19,963 nt of DNA, from the UHGV virus genome UHGV-1527372; one strand, 5' to 3'. The translations under genes and the position numbers were made by a program. This document shows positions 5,617 to 19,963 of this stretch, one piece after another. The stretch comes from a virus. Positions within the stretch are counted from its first letter, which is position 1. Every line of letters starts with the position of its first letter. Below the pieces are notes generated by a model that was not told the DNA's origin, did not search any database, and saw nothing but the letters and a program-made list of their open reading frames with translations.

Positions 5617-6213
5617 TTACTCCGGTTTAACCGGCCACTCGATATCCGGTGCCGTGGAGGTATCGACCGCGTTCAGCGCCTGAATGTATTTCATCCACGC
5701 AATCAGGCTGTCCTTGTCATCGTCGCTGATGATGCCGAGCTGCAGCTCAGTCTGCCACAGGCTGATTGTGCTTTGGGCTTCGGCCAGCAATGAGGCTTTT
5801 TTCTGTTCTGCTGCTGCAATCTGACCGCTTTTCTGCGCATCCGCATTCGTAACCCATTCGCTACCGTTCCAGCGGTCATAAGGCGTCAGTGGTTCGATGA
5901 TGGTCACATTATCAGGATAATCACCGAGCCCGGTTATCTCGACAGGCTTGCCGGTTTCCGTGTCATATACAGTTTCTCCCCGGTGGTCGATAACATAAAC
6001 CCACCCATCAAGACTGACCGAGCGGCAAATGGCAAAACCGTCTTTCTCAGCTACCGGTGCATCGATACAGGAGTTGGCTGGAATCCCCACGCCCACCGCC
6101 AAAAACTCGGTGGAAGTCGACAAAAACTCTCGCGTTTCCCCGTCGTAGTTAAAGACCGTCACATCGCCAGCTTTTGTGGCAATACCACTTTTATTCAATG
6201 TTGCTTTCGCCAT
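5617..6213 (-). CDS. G: Tail fiber assembly protein G
   Basis: 198 aa with tail-fiber-assembly C-terminal motifs (PYDRWNG, SDDDK, APDIEWPVKPE); its ATG overlaps the H stop (TAATG). Confidence 0.85.
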   Translation of the reverse strand: MAKATLNKSGIATKAGDVTVFNYDGETREFLSTSTEFLAVGVGIPANSCIDAPVAEKDGFAICRSVSLDGWVYVIDHRGETVYDTETGKPVEITGLGDYPDNVTIIEPLTPYDRWNGSEWVTNADAQKSGQIAAAEQKKASLLAEAQSTISLWQTELQLGIISDDDKDSLIAWMKYIQALNAVDTSTAPDIEWPVKPE

Positions 6214-7295
6214 TATGCCGCCCTCACGATGTAATTAAATGCGATGTTGCGTGGTCGGGTTTCAGTTCCGCCTATAATATTGGTACTCAACCCGGTCGCG
6301 GTTCGCTTATTGTTTTTGTTACCTTCTGCAAGACAGTTGTAATCATCATTGCCGATTAGAGTGCCGTTGGCATCAATATCAAGCGGTGCCAGCGAGCTCG
6401 TCGCTGAGCTTAACGTCAGCATTTCATCCGAGCTTGGCAGACTTGTCAGAGGTACCTCGTTACGTGATACTCCTGCATAAAAATAGGACTCATGCCGATG
6501 AGCTTTGAAGTCATCTACTTGGGCACTGAGCAATACTCGACCGCTGTCAATACCTCGCCCGTCATCCCAGCCACGCAAAAACTCACCGCGTAAATCAGGC
6601 AGATTGCCAGAAGGATAAGCGACGGCCAGCTTTGGATATTTCGCCTTATCGAACGCTGCACCGTTGCATTTTAACCACCCCTCCGGCGGTGTTGCCTGCG
6701 GCCACGGCAGCGGAAAACCAACCGGAATATATTTATCAATATCCGCTGTTTTGAGGTACTGAGCGTGCGGGTCAGCAGCGGCAAGGTGTGCAGCCATCAG
6801 GCTATCGGCATAAGCTTTTACCTCGATAACCTTATCGTCGACATACTGGCGCGTTGCCAGCACGACCGACGGGTCGATTTTCAGGGTAATAGCCGACGTG
6901 CTCGACACAATCAGAATCATGCGAATGGTCTGCGTGCGGCCGCTTCCCTCCTGCAGTTGCGGCTTGTAGGTTTCCGGGCAGTTCGCCACGGCAATAAGCA
7001 CACCGGCATCATCATAGAGACCAATCTCGCGGATCCAGAAACCACCCTCATTCTCGGGAATAATTTGTTCCGCGATAATCTGGCTGGTATTGGCCGGGTC
7101 AACGGTCAGCAGGTTCAGCGGCGCGATGCGCTTCTGGTTAATGAGCTTCGTCTGCGCCGGGTCAGGGGTCGGCAACGTACCATTCGCATCACCGACGGCC
7201 ATCTGCGTCAGGTTGAGTTTGGTACCGAGTGCCGCCGCGTTCGCCAGCCGCGCCGCGCCCTGATTGGTCAGAATGGCAAAATATTTTGCGGTCAT
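6213..7295 (-). CDS. H: Tail fiber protein H (short form, 360 aa) with phage tail-collar-like C-terminal domain
   Basis: Conserved P2 H N-terminus (MAVGD..., GGFWIREIGLYDDAGVLIAVAN) and a collar-like C-terminal region (PEGWLKCNGAAFDKAKYPKLA...LPDLRGEFLRG). Confidence 0.85.
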   Translation of the reverse strand: MTAKYFAILTNQGAARLANAAALGTKLNLTQMAVGDANGTLPTPDPAQTKLINQKRIAPLNLLTVDPANTSQIIAEQIIPENEGGFWIREIGLYDDAGVLIAVANCPETYKPQLQEGSGRTQTIRMILIVSSTSAITLKIDPSVVLATRQYVDDKVIEVKAYADSLMAAHLAAADPHAQYLKTADIDKYIPVGFPLPWPQATPPEGWLKCNGAAFDKAKYPKLAVAYPSGNLPDLRGEFLRGWDDGRGIDSGRVLLSAQVDDFKAHRHESYFYAGVSRNEVPLTSLPSSDEMLTLSSATSSLAPLDIDANGTLIGNDDYNCLAEGNKNNKRTATGLSTNIIGGTETRPRNIAFNYIVRAA

Positions 7296-15372: not shown

Positions 15373-17142
15373 ATGACCATTTCCACAGATACAACCTTGT
15401 TGCATGACCCGCGACGGCAGGCATCGCTGCTTTACTGGCAGGGTTTTTCCGTGCCACAGATTGCCGAAATGCTGCAGGTCAAGCGCCCGACCGTGCAGAG
15501 CTGGAAGCAGCGCGACGGCTGGGACGGCATCGCGCCGATTTCCCGCGTTGAAAGCAGCCTTGAGGCCAGGCTGATTCAGCTCATCGCCAAGCCGCAAAAG
15601 ACAGGGGGTGATTTCAAAGAGATTGACCTGCTCGGACGGCAGATTGAACGGTTGGCGCGAGTCAACCGCTACAGCCAGACCGGCAACGAAGCCGACCTTA
15701 ACCCCAACGTCGCCAACCGCAACAAAGGGGAGCGCAAAAAGCCGAAAAAGAATTTTTTCAGCGACGAGGCTATCGATAAACTAGAGGAATTATTTTTCGA
15801 CCAGTCTTTCGAGTACCAGTTGCAGTGGTACCGCGCAGGACTGGAGCACCGTATTCGTGACATTCTCAAATCCCGCCAGATTGGCGCGACATTCTATTTC
15901 TCCCGCGAGTCACTGCTGCGCGCACTCAAAACTGGCCATAACCAGATATTTTTATCAGCCAGTAAAACGCAGGCTTACGTGTTCCGCGAATACATCATCC
16001 AGTTTGCGCGACTGGTCGACGTTGACCTGACTGGCGATCCGATTGTCATCGGTAACAACGGCGCAAAACTGATTTTTCTCGGTACCAATTCCAACACCGC
16101 GCAGAGCCATAACGGCGATCTGTATGTCGATGAAATATTCTGGATCCCGAATTTTCAGAAACTGCGCAAAGTCGCCTCGGGCATGGCCTCGCAAAAGCAC
16201 CTGCGCTCGACCTATTTTTCGACACCTTCCACGCTGGCGCACGGCGCTTACCCCTTCTGGTCTGGCGAGCTGTTCAACAAGGGGCGCAGCCGGATTGCCG
16301 ACCGCATCGAAATCGACATCAGTCACAGCGCGCTCGCCGGTGGCCAGCTCTGCGACGATGGCCAGTGGCGGCAGATTGTCACCATTGAGGACGCCCTTGC
16401 CGGTGGCTGCACCCTGTTCGACCTCGACCAGCTCAAACGCGAAAACAGTGATGAGGACTTTAAGAACCTGTTTATGTGCGAGTTTGTCGACGATAAAGCG
16501 TCGGTATTCCCGTTCGAGGAGCTGCAGCGCTGCATGGTCGATGTGATAGAGGAATGGGAGGACTTTGCCCCGTTCGCCGACCATCCGTTCGGCTCTCGTC
16601 CTGTCTGGATTGGCTACGACCCGTCACACACCGGCGACAGTGCCGGGTGCGTCGTGCTCGCGCCGCCGGTGGTCTCTGGTGGCAAGTTCCGCATGCTGGA
16701 GCGCCACCAGTGGAAGGGCATGGATTTTGCAGCACAGGCAGAGGGCATCCGCAAGCTGACCGAGAAATACAACGTCGAATACATCGGCATTGACGCAACC
16801 GGCCTCGGTCTCGGCGTGTTCCAGCTGGTGCGCTCATTTTACCCGGCGGCACGCGGCATCCGTTACACACCTGAAATGAAAACCGCAATGGTACTCAAGG
16901 CGAAAGACACCATTCGCCGTGGCTGTCTGGAGTACGACGCCGGAGCAACCGACGTCACGCAGTCGTTTATGTCCATCCGCAAAACCATGACCAGCAGCGG
17001 GCGCAGCGCCACCTATGAGGCCAGCCGCACCGAGGAAGCCAGCCACGCCGATATCGCATGGGCGACCATGCACGCCCTGTTAAACGAACCGCTTTCTGCC
17101 GGTAGCGGCATGCAGCCTAAATCTATTCTGGAGTTCAACTAA
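15373..17142 (+). CDS. P: Terminase large (ATPase) subunit P
   Basis: 589 aa, typical P2 gpP length and position, followed 1 nt later by Q. Confidence 0.9.
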   Translation: MTISTDTTLLHDPRRQASLLYWQGFSVPQIAEMLQVKRPTVQSWKQRDGWDGIAPISRVESSLEARLIQLIAKPQKTGGDFKEIDLLGRQIERLARVNRYSQTGNEADLNPNVANRNKGERKKPKKNFFSDEAIDKLEELFFDQSFEYQLQWYRAGLEHRIRDILKSRQIGATFYFSRESLLRALKTGHNQIFLSASKTQAYVFREYIIQFARLVDVDLTGDPIVIGNNGAKLIFLGTNSNTAQSHNGDLYVDEIFWIPNFQKLRKVASGMASQKHLRSTYFSTPSTLAHGAYPFWSGELFNKGRSRIADRIEIDISHSALAGGQLCDDGQWRQIVTIEDALAGGCTLFDLDQLKRENSDEDFKNLFMCEFVDDKASVFPFEELQRCMVDVIEEWEDFAPFADHPFGSRPVWIGYDPSHTGDSAGCVVLAPPVVSGGKFRMLERHQWKGMDFAAQAEGIRKLTEKYNVEYIGIDATGLGLGVFQLVRSFYPAARGIRYTPEMKTAMVLKAKDTIRRGCLEYDAGATDVTQSFMSIRKTMTSSGRSATYEASRTEEASHADIAWATMHALLNEPLSAGSGMQPKSILEFN

Positions 17143-17143
17143 A

Positions 17144-18190
17144 ATGGGTAAACAAAAATCCCGTAAAGCCAACGCACAAAAGGCCAGCAAACCACAACAA
17201 CTGACCGCCAGCGCACCACCAAAAACGACAGCGTTCACCTTCGGCGAGCCGGTGCCGGTACTCGATAAGCGCGACATTCTGGATTACGTCGAGTGCATCA
17301 GTAACGGCAAATGGTACGAGCCGCCGGTCAGCTTCTCAGGGCTGGCAAAGAGCCTGCGCTCTGCCGTGCATCACAGCTCGCCAATTTATGTTAAGCGTAA
17401 CGTGCTCGCGAGCACCTACATTCCGCACCCGTTGTTATCCCGTCAGGATTTCAGCCGCTTTGCGCTCGATTATCTGGTGTTCGGTAACGCCTTTCTTGAG
17501 CAGCGCCACAGCGTCACCGGCCAGTTAATCAAACTGCTGGCCTCGCCAGCCAAATACACCCGACGCGGAGTCGACGATTCGATTTTCTGGTTTGTGGAAA
17601 ACTTCACCCAGCCGCACGAGTTCGCGCCTGATACCGTGTTTCACCTGCTGGAGCCCGACATTAATCAGGAGATTTACGGTCTGCCGGAATATCTCAGCGC
17701 GCTTAATTCCGCTTGGCTGAATGAATCCGCGACGCTGTTCCGCCGCAAGTATTATCAGAACGGCGCGCACGCAGGCTACATCATGTATGTGACTGACCCG
17801 GCGCAAAGTGCGACCGACGTCGAATCGCTGCGCGAGGCGATGCGTAACTCGAAGGGACTCGGCAACTTTAAGAACCTGTTTTTCTACGCCCCCGGCGGAA
17901 AACCGGACGGCATCAAAATCGTGCCACTGAGCGAGGTCGCCACAAAGGATGACTTTTTCAACATTAAGAAAGCCAGCGCCGCCGACCTGATGGACGCGCA
18001 CCGCGTGCCGTTCCAGCTCATGGGCGGCAAGCCCGAGAATATCGGTTCACTCGGTGACGTTGAGAAGGTGGCAAAGGTATTTGTGCGTAATGAGCTGTCA
18101 CCCCTGCAGGATAGGTTCAGGGAGGTAAACGACTGGCTCGGTATGGAGGTCATCAGGTTCAAAGAGTACACACTCGACAACCCGGAATAA
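17144..18190 (+). CDS. Q: Portal protein Q
   Basis: 348 aa, last gene before cos as in P2. Confidence 0.9.
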   Translation: MGKQKSRKANAQKASKPQQLTASAPPKTTAFTFGEPVPVLDKRDILDYVECISNGKWYEPPVSFSGLAKSLRSAVHHSSPIYVKRNVLASTYIPHPLLSRQDFSRFALDYLVFGNAFLEQRHSVTGQLIKLLASPAKYTRRGVDDSIFWFVENFTQPHEFAPDTVFHLLEPDINQEIYGLPEYLSALNSAWLNESATLFRRKYYQNGAHAGYIMYVTDPAQSATDVESLREAMRNSKGLGNFKNLFFYAPGGKPDGIKIVPLSEVATKDDFFNIKKASAADLMDAHRVPFQLMGGKPENIGSLGDVEKVAKVFVRNELSPLQDRFREVNDWLGMEVIRFKEYTLDNPE

Positions 18191-18228: not shown

Positions 18229-18453
18229 TTAGCCTTTAGACTTTTTAGGATCATCTTTTCTCTGATAAGTGCGTTCTTCCTGAATTTTCCCATCTTCCTT
18301 GTGAATTTTGACCGAGCCTGTTTTGTTCGACATAAACTCAGATGTTGTTTTAATCAGCTCGGCCTTTGTGGGCGCGGTCTTGCTAGGGCGGTCATTGCCC
18401 TCTTTTTGCAACTTCCACTTATCGCCATCTTTTGTAATATGATAGTTATCCAT
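18229..18453 (-). CDS. DUF2188-like small protein (moron between portal gene and cos)
   Basis: MDNYHITKDGDKWKLQKEGNDRPSKTAPTKAELIKTTSEFMSNKTGSVKIHKEDGKIQEERTYQRKDDPKKSKG fits the DUF2188 pattern as recalled. Strong GGAGG RBS 5 nt upstream of the ATG at 18453. Markedly AT-rich compared with the phage backbone. Confidence 0.6.
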   Translation of the reverse strand: MDNYHITKDGDKWKLQKEGNDRPSKTAPTKAELIKTTSEFMSNKTGSVKIHKEDGKIQEERTYQRKDDPKKSKG

Positions 18454-18546
18454 TAAAGCCTCCAACTGTTGTGGGGAACATAAAGTCTCAATATGGATAT
18501 TAGCCAAAGCGAAACCGTAAAATTGTGCAACTGATCCCATCCTTTA

Positions 18547-18657: not shown

Positions 18658-18676
18658 ATGCTTTCCCCGCCACGCC
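18658..18676 (-). other. cos: cos cohesive-end core, 186-type
   Basis: Minus strand reads GGCGTGGCGGGGAAAGCAT, which matches the 19-nt cohesive end of phage 186 as I recall it (the P2 end differs at two positions); located just beyond Q as expected. Confidence 0.7.
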
Positions 18677-18841
18677 TGCCCGCTTTATGGGTCGGTTTTA
18701 ATGCAGTTGCATGACAACTCTGGATCCGCGCTAGCTCTGGCGGCGCACGGACAGAACGGGCAAGACTGACGCATGCAAAACCATGCACCTGATGCATGCA
18801 CGACTAAAAAACGGGAAATTCGCGGAAAAATGGCATAAAAA

Positions 18842-18863
18842 AACCGGCATTCAGGGTGCCGGT
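18842..18863 (-). terminator. Strong intrinsic terminator ending the post-cos cargo transcript (usable in both directions)
   Basis: Minus strand ACCGGCA-CCCTGAA-TGCCGGT followed by TTTTTTTAT; the plus-strand side is followed by TTTAGTCTGGTTTT. Confidence 0.7.
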
Positions 18864-18884
18864 TTTAGTCTGGTTTTGTCGCGA

Positions 18885-18986
18885 TTAATGGCCGCGCAAT
18901 GCGCCAATAACACTGTTGAGGCACATGCTGGCAACAATCATCAGAAAAATCGTCGTCCACGGATTTTCATAAACGAGAGATAACAT
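18885..18986 (-). CDS. Candidate 33-aa hydrophobic small membrane peptide
   Basis: ATG-initiated ORF MLSLVYENPWTTIFLMIVASMCLNSVIGALRGH with one predicted TM segment; starts 16 nt after the upstream ORF stop with AAGAGGAA upstream (12-nt spacing, suboptimal); ends 20 nt before the terminator. Confidence 0.3.
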   Translation of the reverse strand: MLSLVYENPWTTIFLMIVASMCLNSVIGALRGH

Positions 18987-19002
18987 ATTTATATAGTTCC
19001 TC

Positions 19003-19197
19003 TTATTTGCGCATTCTGATGTGATTTAACAGGTGTTTGATAACGACTGATAGCTCATCTTTACCGGCCTGCTCGACCATTTTTGCGGTGTAGCTTTCCA
19101 CCTCGCGAGAGCTCAGGTCGTTATTTAAAGCCATTAAAGTCAGATTCTTTGCCCAATCGACAAACGGGTCATTTTTCGATGAAAGGGGATTTTGCAT
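19003..19197 (-). CDS. Hypothetical small protein (64 aa), post-cos cargo
   Basis: MQNPLSSKNDPFVDWAKNLTLMALNNDLSSREVESYTAKMVEQAGKDELSVVIKHLLNHIRMRK; ATG with GAGG 9 nt upstream; AT-rich. The 94-aa TTG-start extension in the ORF track would read through the upstream repeat and is not favoured. Confidence 0.5.
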   Translation of the reverse strand: MQNPLSSKNDPFVDWAKNLTLMALNNDLSSREVESYTAKMVEQAGKDELSVVIKHLLNHIRMRK

Positions 19198-19259
19198 GTC
19201 CAAAAACCTCGAATTATTTAACCAGCAGACGGTTGAAGTATTTGCGACGCTATGACCGG

Positions 19260-19330: not shown

Positions 19331-19540
19331 CTATGGTCGACGTGGTGGCGGTGAGTAATGTGTCGGCTTGCTGATGCTATCCAGCTTGCCGTAATTATCC
19401 CTGACTATTTCGGCACACCCGACCAGCTCGGCGGGTGTCAAATTCTCATTGACCATTATCTGCTGCAGACGATGAACGATGGCCATCAGTTTGATGCTTT
19501 TAGTTTTGTGCTGCGGAATTTCGCCCGGTAGTCGATGCAT
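19331..19540 (-). CDS. Hypothetical small protein (69 aa), post-cos cargo
   Basis: MHRLPGEIPQHKTKSIKLMAIVHRLQQIMVNENLTPAELVGCAEIVRDNYGKLDSISKPTHYSPPPRRP; ATG with GAGGG 8 nt upstream; flanked on both sides by the 69-bp repeat. Confidence 0.55.
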   Translation of the reverse strand: MHRLPGEIPQHKTKSIKLMAIVHRLQQIMVNENLTPAELVGCAEIVRDNYGKLDSISKPTHYSPPPRRP

Positions 19541-19735: not shown

Positions 19736-19963
19736 TTAATGCAGCCAGCTATCGTCCTCCCATACCTGCTGCATGATTTCCATTACTCGTTTTTTATCTT
19801 CGTCCAGTTTCAAACCGCTTAGTTCAACGCCATTAGCGGAGCCCTTGCGAATTCGGATAGCAGTCTTTGGGTAAATAGGTTGAAGATTGCGGTACAGTTC
19901 AGCCTCAAGGTAATGACTCCAACTTATTGATAGTGTTTTATGTTCAGATAATGCCCGATGACT
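19736..19963 (-). CDS. Partial gene (C-terminal 75 codons; start lies beyond the window end), unknown function
   Basis: Open frame from the window edge, ...YLEAELYRNLQPIYPKTAIRIRKGSANGVELSGLKLDEDKKRVMEIMQQVWEDDSWLH*, ending at TAA 19736-19738. Not reported in the ORF track because its start is outside the window. Confidence 0.5.
   Translation of the reverse strand, partial: SHRALSEHKTLSISWSHYLEAELYRNLQPIYPKTAIRIRKGSANGVELSGLKLDEDKKRVMEIMQQVWEDDSWLH

What the first reader, a model, noticed from the sequence alone, without database searches (positions are those of the whole stretch)
18885..18986. 33-aa single-TM peptide ORF at the end of the cargo operon, directly upstream of the terminator
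MLSLVYENPWTTIFLMIVASMCLNSVIGALRGH is ATG-initiated and the size and hydrophobicity of type I toxins and other small membrane peptides. It sits 16 nt after the preceding ORF stop and 20 nt before a strong intrinsic terminator, the position expected for the last gene of an operon. A plus-strand ORF (18783-18983) overlaps it antisense, which is where an antisense regulator could lie. The RBS spacing is suboptimal, so translation is uncertain.
Basis: inference. Interest (0 to 1): 0.4.

Follow-up and report, generated by a model that had tools for sequence, protein, structure and literature searches.

The report
Conserved small prophage membrane-peptide gene
The 33-codon reading frame is a real, protein-level-conserved but dispensable gene for a one-helix membrane peptide, found only next to the DNA-packaging site of P2/186-like prophages of enterobacteria; its function is unknown and nothing supports the toxin/antisense idea.

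Summary
Observation confirmed. ORF 18885-18986 (-) is ATG-initiated and 33 aa. It lies 16 nt after orf64's stop, with a GAGGA 11 nt upstream, and 18-22 nt before a hairpin plus U7 terminator homologous to phage 186 t95b. The window is a 186-like prophage. The ORF is the last cistron in the cos-proximal gpA-gpQ hotspot, downstream of a DinI/Tum-like gene; a LexA box lies upstream, outside the window.

An ORF like this can arise by chance (3 of 82 short ATG-ORFs here have a TM-like stretch). The conservation cannot:
- Substitutions by codon position are 45/24/75.
- pN/pS is 0.32, against 0.55-1.9 in the other five frames.
- 30 distinct intact variants occur across several enterobacterial genera.
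- One clade moved the start codon but kept the frame.

The antisense + ORF is spurious. No antisense promoter, conserved RNA structure, toxin family or Rfam family was found.

The gene is often lost: 18 of 56 neighbour-anchored viral contigs lack an intact copy. PGAP omits it; other pipelines call it "hypothetical protein".

Best reading: an accessory single-pass inner-membrane peptide that acts by sequence-specific binding to a membrane partner. The function is inferred, not shown. Modest interest.

The parts
18885..18986 (-). orf33: a 33-aa single-pass membrane peptide gene (ATG 18986-18984, TAA 18887-18885)
   Evidence: ORF. It is conserved in 15 phage records, 49 IMG/VR loci and 94 of 5426 complete E. 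coli genomes. Codon-position changes are 45/24/75. pN/pS is 0.32 against 0.55-1.9 in the other frames. TM stretch. The exact sequence is in nr/UniRef as 'uncharacterised protein'.
18998..19002 (-). Shine-Dalgarno-like GAGGA, 11 nt upstream of the ATG, directly after orf64's stop codon
   Evidence: Sequence. It is conserved as (A/G)AGGA in most relatives, and replaced by an in-frame ATG (TAAAATG) in one clade.
18837..18866 (-). Intrinsic terminator (stem CCGGCA/TGCCGG, loop CCCTGAA, U7). It is also hairpin-competent on the + strand. It is homologous to t95b of phage 186.
   Evidence: Scan. The 186 annotation reads 't95b; p95 transcript terminator' at the aligned position. It is the only helix conserved in the alignment fold.
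19003..19197 (-). orf64 (phrog_2454), the upstream neighbour. It has a predicted three-helix bundle and no known function. It is the likely translational coupling partner.
   Evidence: PHROG hit. PGAP CDS WP_001544861.1. 49 of the 61 sequences then held (60 fetched loci plus the window) carry it. AF2 pLDDT 75 with no PDB match. Homologues are all 'hypothetical'.
19331..19540 (-). orf69 (phrog_11386), the next gene upstream in the same operon
19736..19963 (-). 3' part of a DinI-family gene (it runs off the window), homologous to the C-terminal half of the 186 antirepressor Tum. It is the SOS-operon gene upstream of the cargo.
   Evidence: PGAP 'DinI family protein'. Pfam DinI 7e-24. 47% identity to Tum residues 71-145, E 5e-28. 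A LexA box CTGTATATTTATACAG lies further upstream, outside the window.
18658..18676 (.). cos cohesive-end sequence (atgctttccccgccacgcc on +), 209 nt from the ORF's stop
   Evidence: Sequence. The right end of the linear 186 record aligns to window 18677.
18783..18983 (+). Antisense 66-aa ORF: a spurious ORF, not a gene
   Evidence: There is no codon periodicity. Most changes fall on its first codon position where it overlaps orf33, and its length is 6-66 aa in relatives. pN/pS in its frame is 0.62. Its N-terminal half matches phrog_17882, an ORF family called across the cos flank and terminator hairpin.

Best explanation
orf33 is a genuine accessory gene of P2/186-like (Peduoviridae) prophages and encodes a 33-residue single-pass inner-membrane peptide.

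Transcription. In this prophage it is the last cistron of the LexA-box-preceded operon orf60, dinI/tum-like, orf69, orf64, orf33. That operon ends at the t95b-type terminator next to cos.

Translation. It probably starts from the weakly spaced GAGGA, or by termination-reinitiation coupling with orf64, whose stop lies 16 nt upstream.

Product. The peptide has three parts:
- a strictly conserved 12-residue head (MLSLVYENPWTT);
- a 19-residue helix with a conserved polar face (S20, C22, N24, S25, G28);
- a short basic tail (R31-G-x).
The tail should hold the C-terminus in the cytoplasm, giving N-out/C-in topology.

Mode of action. Selection acts on specific residues and not only on hydrophobicity. 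I therefore infer that it works by sequence-specific helix and head-group binding to another membrane protein, of host or incoming phage. This is how known small membrane modulators and prophage exclusion proteins work. I do not infer a generic pore-forming toxin.

It is dispensable and has been lost repeatedly.

Shown: the ORF, its conservation pattern, its context and its losses. Inferred: transcription, translation, topology, partner binding and biological role.
For: Coding in this frame:
- Parsimony changes on 45 unique sequences fall 45/24/75 on codon positions 1/2/3, and 7/1/25 in codons 1-12.
- NG86 pN/pS is 0.32 overall and 0.15 for codons 1-12. The other five frames of the same DNA give 0.55-1.9.
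- The 20-nt spacer after the stop evolves 2.5 times faster than the ORF.
- There are 30 distinct intact variants, with conservative I/V/L/M/A/T changes in the helix. M1, L2, Y6, W10, T11, T12, F14, L15, C22, S25 and I27 are invariant.

Spread:
- It occurs in Escherichia, Salmonella, Klebsiella, Citrobacter, Edwardsiella and Lelliottia.
- Among complete E. coli genomes found by DNA similarity, 9 of the 10 identity classes sampled are intact.

Selection for translation:
- One clade has SD AAGG changed to AATG. This gives an in-frame ATG 4 nt after orf64's stop.
- In L092 the canonical ATG is lost and only that upstream start remains.

Independence from the neighbour:
- The ORF stays intact where orf64 is deleted (SEN1) or degraded (L015, L036).

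Context:
- LexA box and no terminator-like site before t95b.
- DinI/Tum homology and the 186 annotation of p95/t95b.
- The locus is the gpA-gpQ cos-proximal hotspot of P2-like phages (PMC9122126).

TM helix.
Against: - There is no direct evidence of transcription or translation.
- PGAP never annotates it.
- The SD spacing of 11 nt is suboptimal.
- 18 of 56 orf64-anchored viral contigs lack an intact copy. The causes are start loss, frameshifts, a premature stop, or replacement. A Cronobacter lineage, an Enterobacter lineage and one E. coli lineage also lack it. Selection is therefore weak or conditional.
- No partner, no homologous family and no structure-based hint was obtained. Only 5 proteins matched among 1.84 billion representatives: close variants, two truncated or frameshifted forms and one chance repeat protein. 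orf64's fold has no PDB match.
- The 'binding a partner' step rests only on the residue-conservation pattern.
Confidence: 0.55

Rival explanations
1. Type I-toxin-like or TisB/DinQ-like peptide. This would be an SOS-induced small hydrophobic peptide that depolarises or permeabilises the inner membrane. It would be kept in check by an antisense RNA or by poor translation.
For: - Size and one TM helix.
- Last gene of an operon preceded by a perfect LexA box. The known SOS peptides TisB and DinQ are also LexA-controlled (established knowledge).
- Weak RBS spacing.
- Frequent loss would fit a costly gene.
Against: - No match to any toxin family in Pfam or NCBIfam.
- No promoter-like site on the antisense strand between 18500 and 19963.
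- The antisense ORF is spurious and no Rfam RNA matches.
- No conserved mRNA structure sequesters the RBS; only the terminator helix is conserved.
- It is operonic, 16 nt after orf64, not a stand-alone locus.
- The strongest constraint is on a polar and aromatic extramembrane head (pN/pS 0.15). That fits a binding interface better than a pore.
- In Midge, FSL SP-004, Klebsiella and O157 prophages, opposite-strand genes separate the module from the SOS promoter.
Confidence: 0.15
2. Not a functional gene. On this view the ORF is an untranslated stretch of 3' UTR that stays open in many relatives because they diverged recently or because it hitch-hikes with orf64 and the terminator. The broken copies would show that it is decaying everywhere.
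For: - PGAP does not call it.
- Multiple independent disruptions.
- Suboptimal SD spacing.
- An ORF with a TM-like stretch is not rare by chance, 3 of 82.
Against: - Third-position-biased substitution and pN/pS 0.32 are specific to this frame, with the other five frames of the same bases as internal control.
- Synonymous divergence is substantial (pS 0.26), so recent ancestry cannot explain the intact frame.
- A start codon was relocated in frame.
- The ORF persists where orf64 is lost.
- The adjacent spacer evolves 2.5 times faster.
Confidence: 0.12
3. RNA- or DNA-level element. The conserved sequence might be a 3'-UTR-derived sRNA ending at the terminator. It might be a leader-peptide attenuator governing read-through across cos into the DUF2188 gene. 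It might be a packaging-related site.
For: - Position immediately upstream of a strong terminator.
- A weak Rfam Thr_leader match spanning the ORF's 3' half and the terminator (22.8 bits, E 0.19).
- DUF2188 lies downstream on the same strand.
- MFE z-score of -2.6 for the region including the terminator.
Against: - The Rfam score is far below the gathering score of 55.
- The alignment fold finds only the terminator helix, with no compensatory pairs elsewhere.
- The hairpin inside the ORF is broken by frequent third-position changes without compensation.
- The substitution pattern is that of a protein.
- DUF2188 is absent from most relatives.
- Phages 186 and P2 share the terminator and cos flank but not the ORF sequence. 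It is therefore not needed for packaging.
Confidence: 0.05
4. A phage-borne relative or mimic of PmrR, the 29-aa membrane peptide that inhibits the lipid A kinase LpxT. It would alter lipid A charge in lysogens.
For: - The N-terminal halves align from residue 1: MLSLVYENPWTTIFLMIVAS against MKNRVYES-LTTVFSVLVVSS.
- Smith-Waterman score is 35, with shuffle p about 0.003.
- NCBIfam PmrR (NF033224) is the only one of 18,950 models hit by a family variant, at E 0.039.
- The family HMM against PmrR gives 9.7 bits, reached by 23 of 20,000 shuffles.
Against: - The window's own peptide gives no NCBIfam hit.
- 13.8 bits is well below the curated cutoff of 30.
- BLASTP finds nothing.
- The lead came from memory among many small proteins, so there is an implicit multiple-testing cost.
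- Charges are placed oppositely. PmrR has K2 and R4 at the N-terminus. orf33 has E7 at the N-terminus and R31 at the C-terminus. This predicts inverted topology.
- The C-terminal halves are unrelated.
Confidence: 0.05

Closest known systems
TisB and DinQ (LexA-regulated type I toxins of E. coli)
   Same: All are small (27-33 aa), have a single hydrophobic helix, and lie downstream of a LexA-controlled promoter (LexA box).
   Different: No sequence similarity and no family hit. No antisense RNA or structured leader was detected. orf33 is the fifth cistron of an operon rather than its own locus. Toxicity is untested.
PmrR (NF033224, LpxT activity modulator) and other small inner-membrane modulators such as AcrZ, MgtS and MgrB
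   Same: Similar size, one TM helix, and residue-specific conservation that suggests a binding interface. There is a weak N-terminal resemblance to PmrR.
   Different: The score is below the family cutoff and the window peptide does not hit the model. The predicted topology is opposite. orf33 is prophage-borne rather than chromosomal core. The partner is unknown.
Phage 186 orf97, and P2 old/tin (cargo of the cos-proximal gpA-gpQ hotspot)
   Same: Same genomic slot: last gene(s) before the t95b-type terminator and cos (PMC9122126). 186 orf97 is annotated as blocking 186 infection when expressed from a plasmid.
   Different: No sequence homology; homology between the window and 186 begins only at the terminator. 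orf97, old and tin are far larger proteins (orf97 is about 240 aa). orf33 flanks many different cargos (retron RT, Fic, DinI) rather than being the variable cargo itself.
Small prophage-encoded membrane proteins that exclude superinfecting phages (e.g. HK97 gp15; recalled from the literature, not tested here)
   Same: Prophage accessory position, small membrane protein, dispensable for the phage.
   Different: No homology was examined or found, and an exclusion phenotype is untested.

Membership tests
Protein-coding small ORF (real gene versus chance ORF) | Purifying selection in the proposed frame, stronger than in the other five frames | tested here: met
   pN/pS is 0.32 against 0.55-1.9. 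Codon-position changes are 45/24/75.
Protein-coding small ORF (real gene versus chance ORF) | Frame kept open in relatives found without reference to the peptide | tested here: inconclusive
   38 of 56 orf64-anchored IMG/VR contigs are intact. 9 of 10 sampled E. coli DNA-identity classes are intact. Cronobacter, Enterobacter and the 81% E. coli class are broken. The frame is mostly kept, with repeated losses.
Protein-coding small ORF (real gene versus chance ORF) | Evidence of translation | not testable with these tools
   No Ribo-seq or proteomic data were reachable. No paper contains the sequence.
Single-pass membrane peptide | One hydrophobic stretch of about 19 residues able to span the membrane | tested here: met
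   Residues 12-30 have mean KD 2.09 and a Hessa sum of +0.5 kcal/mol. Substitutions there are conservative.
Type I toxin-antitoxin system | Toxin belongs to a known family (Hok, Ldr, Ibs, ShoB, TisB, DinQ, Fst, ...) | tested here: not met
   No Pfam or NCBIfam hit at E<=1 except a chance DUF883_C match at 0.21.
Type I toxin-antitoxin system | Cognate antisense or overlapping small RNA with its own promoter | tested here: inconclusive
   The consensus scan finds no + strand promoter-like site near the ORF. No Rfam match. The antisense ORF is spurious. A weak promoter cannot be excluded without transcript data.
Type I toxin-antitoxin system | Stand-alone locus whose mRNA leader sequesters the RBS | tested here: not met
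   The ORF starts 16 nt after orf64 in an operon. Only the terminator helix is conserved.
Type I toxin-antitoxin system | Toxicity on overexpression | not testable with these tools
   Requires an experiment.
PmrR (NCBIfam NF033224) | Score at or above the curated cutoff (30 bits) against the family model | tested here: not met
   The window peptide gives no hit. The best family variant scores 13.8 bits, E 0.039. Genuine PmrR scores 74.2 bits.
PmrR (NCBIfam NF033224) | Binds and inhibits LpxT | not testable with these tools
   Requires an experiment.
Phage 186-type SOS operon (p95, tum, ..., t95b) | LexA box promoter, Tum/DinI-like gene, and a terminator next to cos, all on one strand | tested here: met
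   LexA box CTGTATATTTATACAG in the identical prophage L001. The DinI gene is 47% identical to the Tum C-terminus. The terminator aligns with 186 t95b. No terminator-like site lies in between.
Cargo of the P2-like cos-proximal defence hotspot (Rousset et al. 2022) | Located between replication gene A and portal gene Q, next to cos | tested here: met
   Gene order. Definition in PMC9122126.
Cargo of the P2-like cos-proximal defence hotspot (Rousset et al. 2022) | Matches a known or candidate defence protein model | tested here: not met
   PADLOC gives nothing for orf33 or orf69, and only a chance-level hit for orf64 (E 0.029).
Leader peptide / transcription attenuator | Match to a leader family, or an alternative antiterminator structure with covariation | tested here: not met
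   Thr_leader scores 22.8 bits against a gathering score of 55. There is no conserved helix besides the terminator.

The most novel reading that the evidence does not exclude
orf33 is a prophage-encoded effector peptide released with the SOS/Tum operon. It docks onto a host inner-membrane enzyme through its conserved YENPWTT head. The only hint from sequence is PmrR's target, the lipid A kinase LpxT. It would thereby rewire the envelope or block incoming phage DNA. That would make it a phage-borne mimic of a host small regulatory membrane protein.
Probability: 0.07. Interest if true: 0.6.

Novelty: new member of a known kind. Interest (0 to 1): 0.3.

Why it matters
- **Annotation gap.** RefSeq's pipeline systematically omits a gene that is under purifying selection. 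The exact 33-aa sequence was recorded on at least 1,000 contigs (the tool's counting cap), and several other variants on hundreds more. It is the most conserved element at one edge of the P2-like defence hotspot.
- **Possible role.** If its product modulates a host membrane protein or excludes phages, it would add to the short list of characterised phage-encoded small membrane proteins.
- **Limits.** The family is narrow and dispensable, and no function can be assigned from sequence. The finding is useful for annotation and as an experimental lead, but it is not surprising.

Tried and rejected
- **Family searches of the peptide.** Pfam, NCBIfam, PHROGs and PADLOC gave nothing meaningful.
- **phmmer against 1.84 billion representatives.** It returned only close variants, two truncated or frameshifted forms and one repetitive eukaryotic chance hit.
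- **Rfam.** Only a sub-threshold Thr_leader hit driven by the terminator.
- **RNA structure.** The single-sequence fold suggested an SD-sequestering hairpin and an intra-ORF hairpin. Neither is conserved or shows covariation.
- **The neighbour orf64.** Its homologues are all 'hypothetical' with no Pfam domain. The AF2 model is a three-helix bundle at pLDDT 75. No PDB fold match has E below 1. It gave no functional hint.
- **Programmed frameshift fusion of orf64 and orf33.** Rejected, because the frame relation is not conserved; spacer indels occur in L064 and L066.
- **Lipoprotein or signal peptide.** Rejected by inspection, as there is no lipobox before C22.
- **Remnant in phage 186.** Rejected. 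Homology starts at the terminator.
- **Literature.** No paper contains the peptide sequence. The ST313 BTP5 paper and the two P2-hotspot papers do not mention it.
- **Own promoter in orf64-less lineages.** A TATAAT is present, but there is no -35 at 16-18 nt. This is left open.

Full report
**What the window is.** The ORF map and annotated relatives show a P2/186-like (Peduoviridae) prophage of E. coli. Tail and head genes are followed by terminase gpP (15373-17142, +) and portal gpQ (17144-18190, +). Next come a DUF2188 gene (18229-18540, -) and the cos cohesive-end sequence (18658-18676). On the minus strand lies an operon that runs toward cos. Nearly identical prophages in E. coli CX21 and MINF_2E continue beyond the window. 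Their gene order is replication endonuclease gpA, a 60-aa ORF, a DinI-family gene, orf69, orf64, and then the region of the finding. This gpA-gpQ, cos-proximal interval is the known hotspot of accessory and defence genes in P2-like phages (PMC9122126).

**The observation.**
- The ATG-initiated 33-codon ORF is at 18885-18986 (-).
- The gap after orf64's stop codon is 16 nt.
- A GAGGA lies 11 nt before the ATG.
- A GC-stem hairpin followed by seven U lies 18-22 nt after the stop.
- A 66-aa ORF sits on the opposite strand.

The hairpin aligns with the terminator annotated in phage 186 as t95b, the end of the LexA-controlled p95 'SOS operon'. The DinI-family gene is 47% identical to the C-terminal half of the 186 antirepressor Tum. 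A perfect LexA box, CTGTATATTTATACAG, lies upstream of the 60-aa ORF, just outside the window. No terminator-like site intervenes. 'Last gene of the operon' is therefore a fair description, and the operon is probably SOS-controlled in this phage.

**Is the ORF more than chance?** On its own, no. The window has 82 ATG-ORFs of 25-60 aa in six frames, and three of them contain a TM-like stretch. The decisive evidence is comparative.
- tblastn finds the ORF in 15 phage records from Escherichia, Salmonella and Klebsiella at 73-91% amino-acid identity.
- A pattern scan finds 49 IMG/VR contigs, plus Citrobacter and Escherichia sp. genomes.
- A DNA search finds it in 94 of 5426 complete E. coli genomes, always inside P2-like prophages.

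In an alignment of 47 unique sequences, the ORF is more conserved than the spacer that follows it: 1.4 against 3.6 parsimony changes per site. Within the ORF, changes fall 45/24/75 on codon positions 1/2/3, and 7/1/25 in the first twelve codons. Nei-Gojobori pN/pS is 0.32 in the peptide frame and 0.15 for codons 1-12. The other five frames of the same bases give 0.55-1.9. Synonymous divergence is substantial (pS 0.26), so the open frame is not just recent common ancestry.

**The bias check.** Loci found through the peptide are biased toward intact copies, so I re-ascertained through the neighbour orf64 and through DNA similarity.
- Of 56 orf64-anchored viral contigs, 38 carry an intact peptide ORF.
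- The other 18 fall into four groups: 1-nt deletions (L060/63, L061/72); lost start codons (L071, L079, L097, L091/93); a CTG start plus frameshift (L112-116, the same lineage as the 81%-identity E. coli class); and a different or highly diverged downstream sequence (L106, L108, L111, L109, L110, L117).
- orf64 homologues from other genera gave intact copies in Edwardsiella and Lelliottia. They gave a premature stop in Cronobacter and a decayed copy in Enterobacter.

The gene is therefore under purifying selection where it is kept, but it is dispensable and has been lost several times.

Two observations argue that selection acts on translation of this frame. First, one clade changed the SD AAGG to AATG, which creates an in-frame ATG four bases after orf64's stop. 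The product gains MIYIK at its N-terminus, and in L092 this is the only start left. Second, the ORF remains intact where orf64 has been deleted (SEN1) or has decayed (L015, L036).

**The antisense ORF and RNA-level readings.** The + strand ORF 18783-18983 shows no coding periodicity on the cos side. Where it overlaps orf33, most changes fall on its own first codon position. Its length ranges from 6 to 66 aa in relatives. It is a spurious ORF. Its N-terminal half belongs to phrog_17882, an ORF family that annotators have called across the cos flank and terminator hairpin.
- No promoter-like site on the + strand was found near the ORF.
- Rfam gave only a sub-threshold Thr_leader hit caused by the terminator.
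- The only helix conserved across the alignment is the terminator itself, with no compensatory changes elsewhere.
- Phages 186 and P2 share the terminator and cos flank but not the ORF sequence, so the ORF is not a packaging element.

**The product.** The peptide has three parts.
- A head, MLSLVYENPWTT, is invariant at M1, L2, Y6, W10, T11 and T12 and nearly so at E7, N8 and P9.
- A 19-residue hydrophobic stretch has mean Kyte-Doolittle 2.09. Its variation is conservative, and it has a conserved polar face: C22 and S25 are invariant, and S20, N24 and G28 nearly so.
- A short tail, R31-G-x, ends the peptide.

The single basic residue at the C-terminus and the acidic E7 at the N-terminus suggest an N-out/C-in orientation. 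This is inferred from the positive-inside rule.

**Databases.** The exact sequence is already in nr and UniRef as 'uncharacterised protein', recorded on at least 1,000 contigs, which is the tool's counting cap. It is annotated in Klebsiella phage ST147-VIM1phi7.1. PGAP never calls it. No family model matches the window peptide. An exhaustive phmmer search of 1.84 billion representatives found only close variants, two truncated or frameshifted forms and one chance repeat-protein hit. No paper in the library contains the sequence.

**How it most likely works.** This is inferred. Constraint is strongest on specific polar and aromatic residues outside and inside the helix. I therefore favour a small membrane modulator that binds another membrane protein over a generic pore-former. 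The genomic slot makes an exclusion or defence-related role, or a host-envelope role, the most natural guess. That slot is the edge of the defence hotspot, where 186 carries orf97, annotated as blocking 186 infection. None of this is shown.

The neighbour orf64 gave no help. It is a three-helix bundle with no PDB match and no annotated homologue. In Midge, FSL SP-004, Klebsiella and O157:H7 prophages, the orf64-orf33 pair is separated from the SOS promoter by opposite-strand genes and lies beside varied cargo, including a retron reverse transcriptase and a Fic protein. SOS control may therefore be particular to this arrangement.

**The type I toxin reading.** It shares size, hydrophobicity and, here, LexA control with TisB and DinQ. 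The testable defining features fail or are unresolved: known toxin family (not met), stand-alone structured locus (not met) and antisense RNA (inconclusive). Toxicity needs an experiment. I give it 0.15.

**A lead from memory, tested.** The N-terminal half resembles PmrR, the LpxT modulator. I took PmrR's sequence from K-12.
- Smith-Waterman score is 35, with shuffle p about 0.003.
- The family HMM against PmrR gives 9.7 bits, reached by 23 of 20,000 shuffles.
- The NCBIfam PmrR model is the only model hit by one family variant, at E 0.039 and 13.8 bits against a cutoff of 30.
- The window peptide does not hit the model, and BLASTP finds nothing.
- The charge distribution predicts the opposite topology.

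Membership is not met, and the resemblance remains a low-probability lead.

**Verdict.** The finding is a real, conserved, unannotated-by-RefSeq small membrane-protein gene. It is a new, uncharacterised member of a known kind: small accessory membrane peptides of prophages. The toxin/antisense interpretation is not supported. Interest is modest, at 0.3.

Noticed in passing
window 18658-18676: The 19-nt cos cohesive-end sequence (atgctttccccgccacgcc on +). The right end of the linear phage 186 record aligns to 18677. The finding therefore lies about 210 nt from the packaging site.
   Followed up: partly
window 18229-18540 (-): A DUF2188 protein between the portal gene and cos matches the PADLOC candidate defence family PDC-S16 (E 1e-14). 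It lies on the same strand as, and downstream of, the t95b-type terminator. It is absent from most related prophages.
   Followed up: partly
window 19196-19255 (+): A truncated remnant (MSKNLELFNQQTVEVFATL*) of a 143-aa opposite-strand gene. That gene is intact in phage Midge (gp045), FSL SP-004, Klebsiella ST147-VIM1phi7.1 and O157:H7 FRIK944. Its ATG overlaps orf64's ATG by 2 nt, so each gene's promoter must lie inside the other.
   Followed up: partly
L001 4578-4593 (about 215 nt beyond the window's right end): A perfect LexA box, CTGTATATTTATACAG, between replication gene A and the 60-aa ORF + DinI gene. It matches the position of p95 in phage 186.
   Followed up: yes
window 18783-18880 (+); L007 2605-2775; L003 2504-2776: ORFs annotated in several phage records ('aI protein' in SW9, gp047 in Midge, SEN1_43; phrog_17882) span the cos flank and the terminator hairpin. 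They show no coding signature and are probably spurious gene calls.
   Followed up: yes
L085, L087, L092, L098-L101, L120, L132: In this clade the SD AAGG is AATG, which creates an in-frame ATG 4 nt after orf64's stop (TAAAATG). The product is 38 aa (MIYIK + peptide). In L092 the canonical ATG is AAG.
   Followed up: yes
L015 and L036, about 30 nt upstream of the peptide ATG (also L042-44, L051, L053-54): In lineages where orf64 has decayed, the sequence ...CAGAATG... has become ...TATAATG.... This is a perfect -10 hexamer on the peptide's strand, but no -35 lies at 16-18 nt. It may be a new promoter or may be coincidence.
   Followed up: partly
window 18782-18798: A strongly conserved second hairpin (CATGCATCAGGTGCATG followed by GTTTTGCATG) lies between the terminator and cos. 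It is present in all relatives, including 186. Its function was not examined.
   Followed up: no
L119 3874-5110; L005 485-1721; L123-L124 and L127-L128 about 700-1950: In O157:H7 FRIK944 and Klebsiella phage ST147-VIM1phi7.1, a reverse transcriptase plus HTH (retron-like) cassette is annotated as the hotspot cargo next to the orf64-orf33 pair. Cronobacter and Enterobacter prophages have a gene layout of the same sizes at that position, but their Pfam tables show no reverse-transcriptase hit, so that identification is by layout only.
   Followed up: no
window 6198-6359 (+): The only other short ATG-ORFs in the window with a TM-like stretch lie antisense inside the 360-aa gene 6213-7295 (-). They were taken as chance ORFs.
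   Followed up: no
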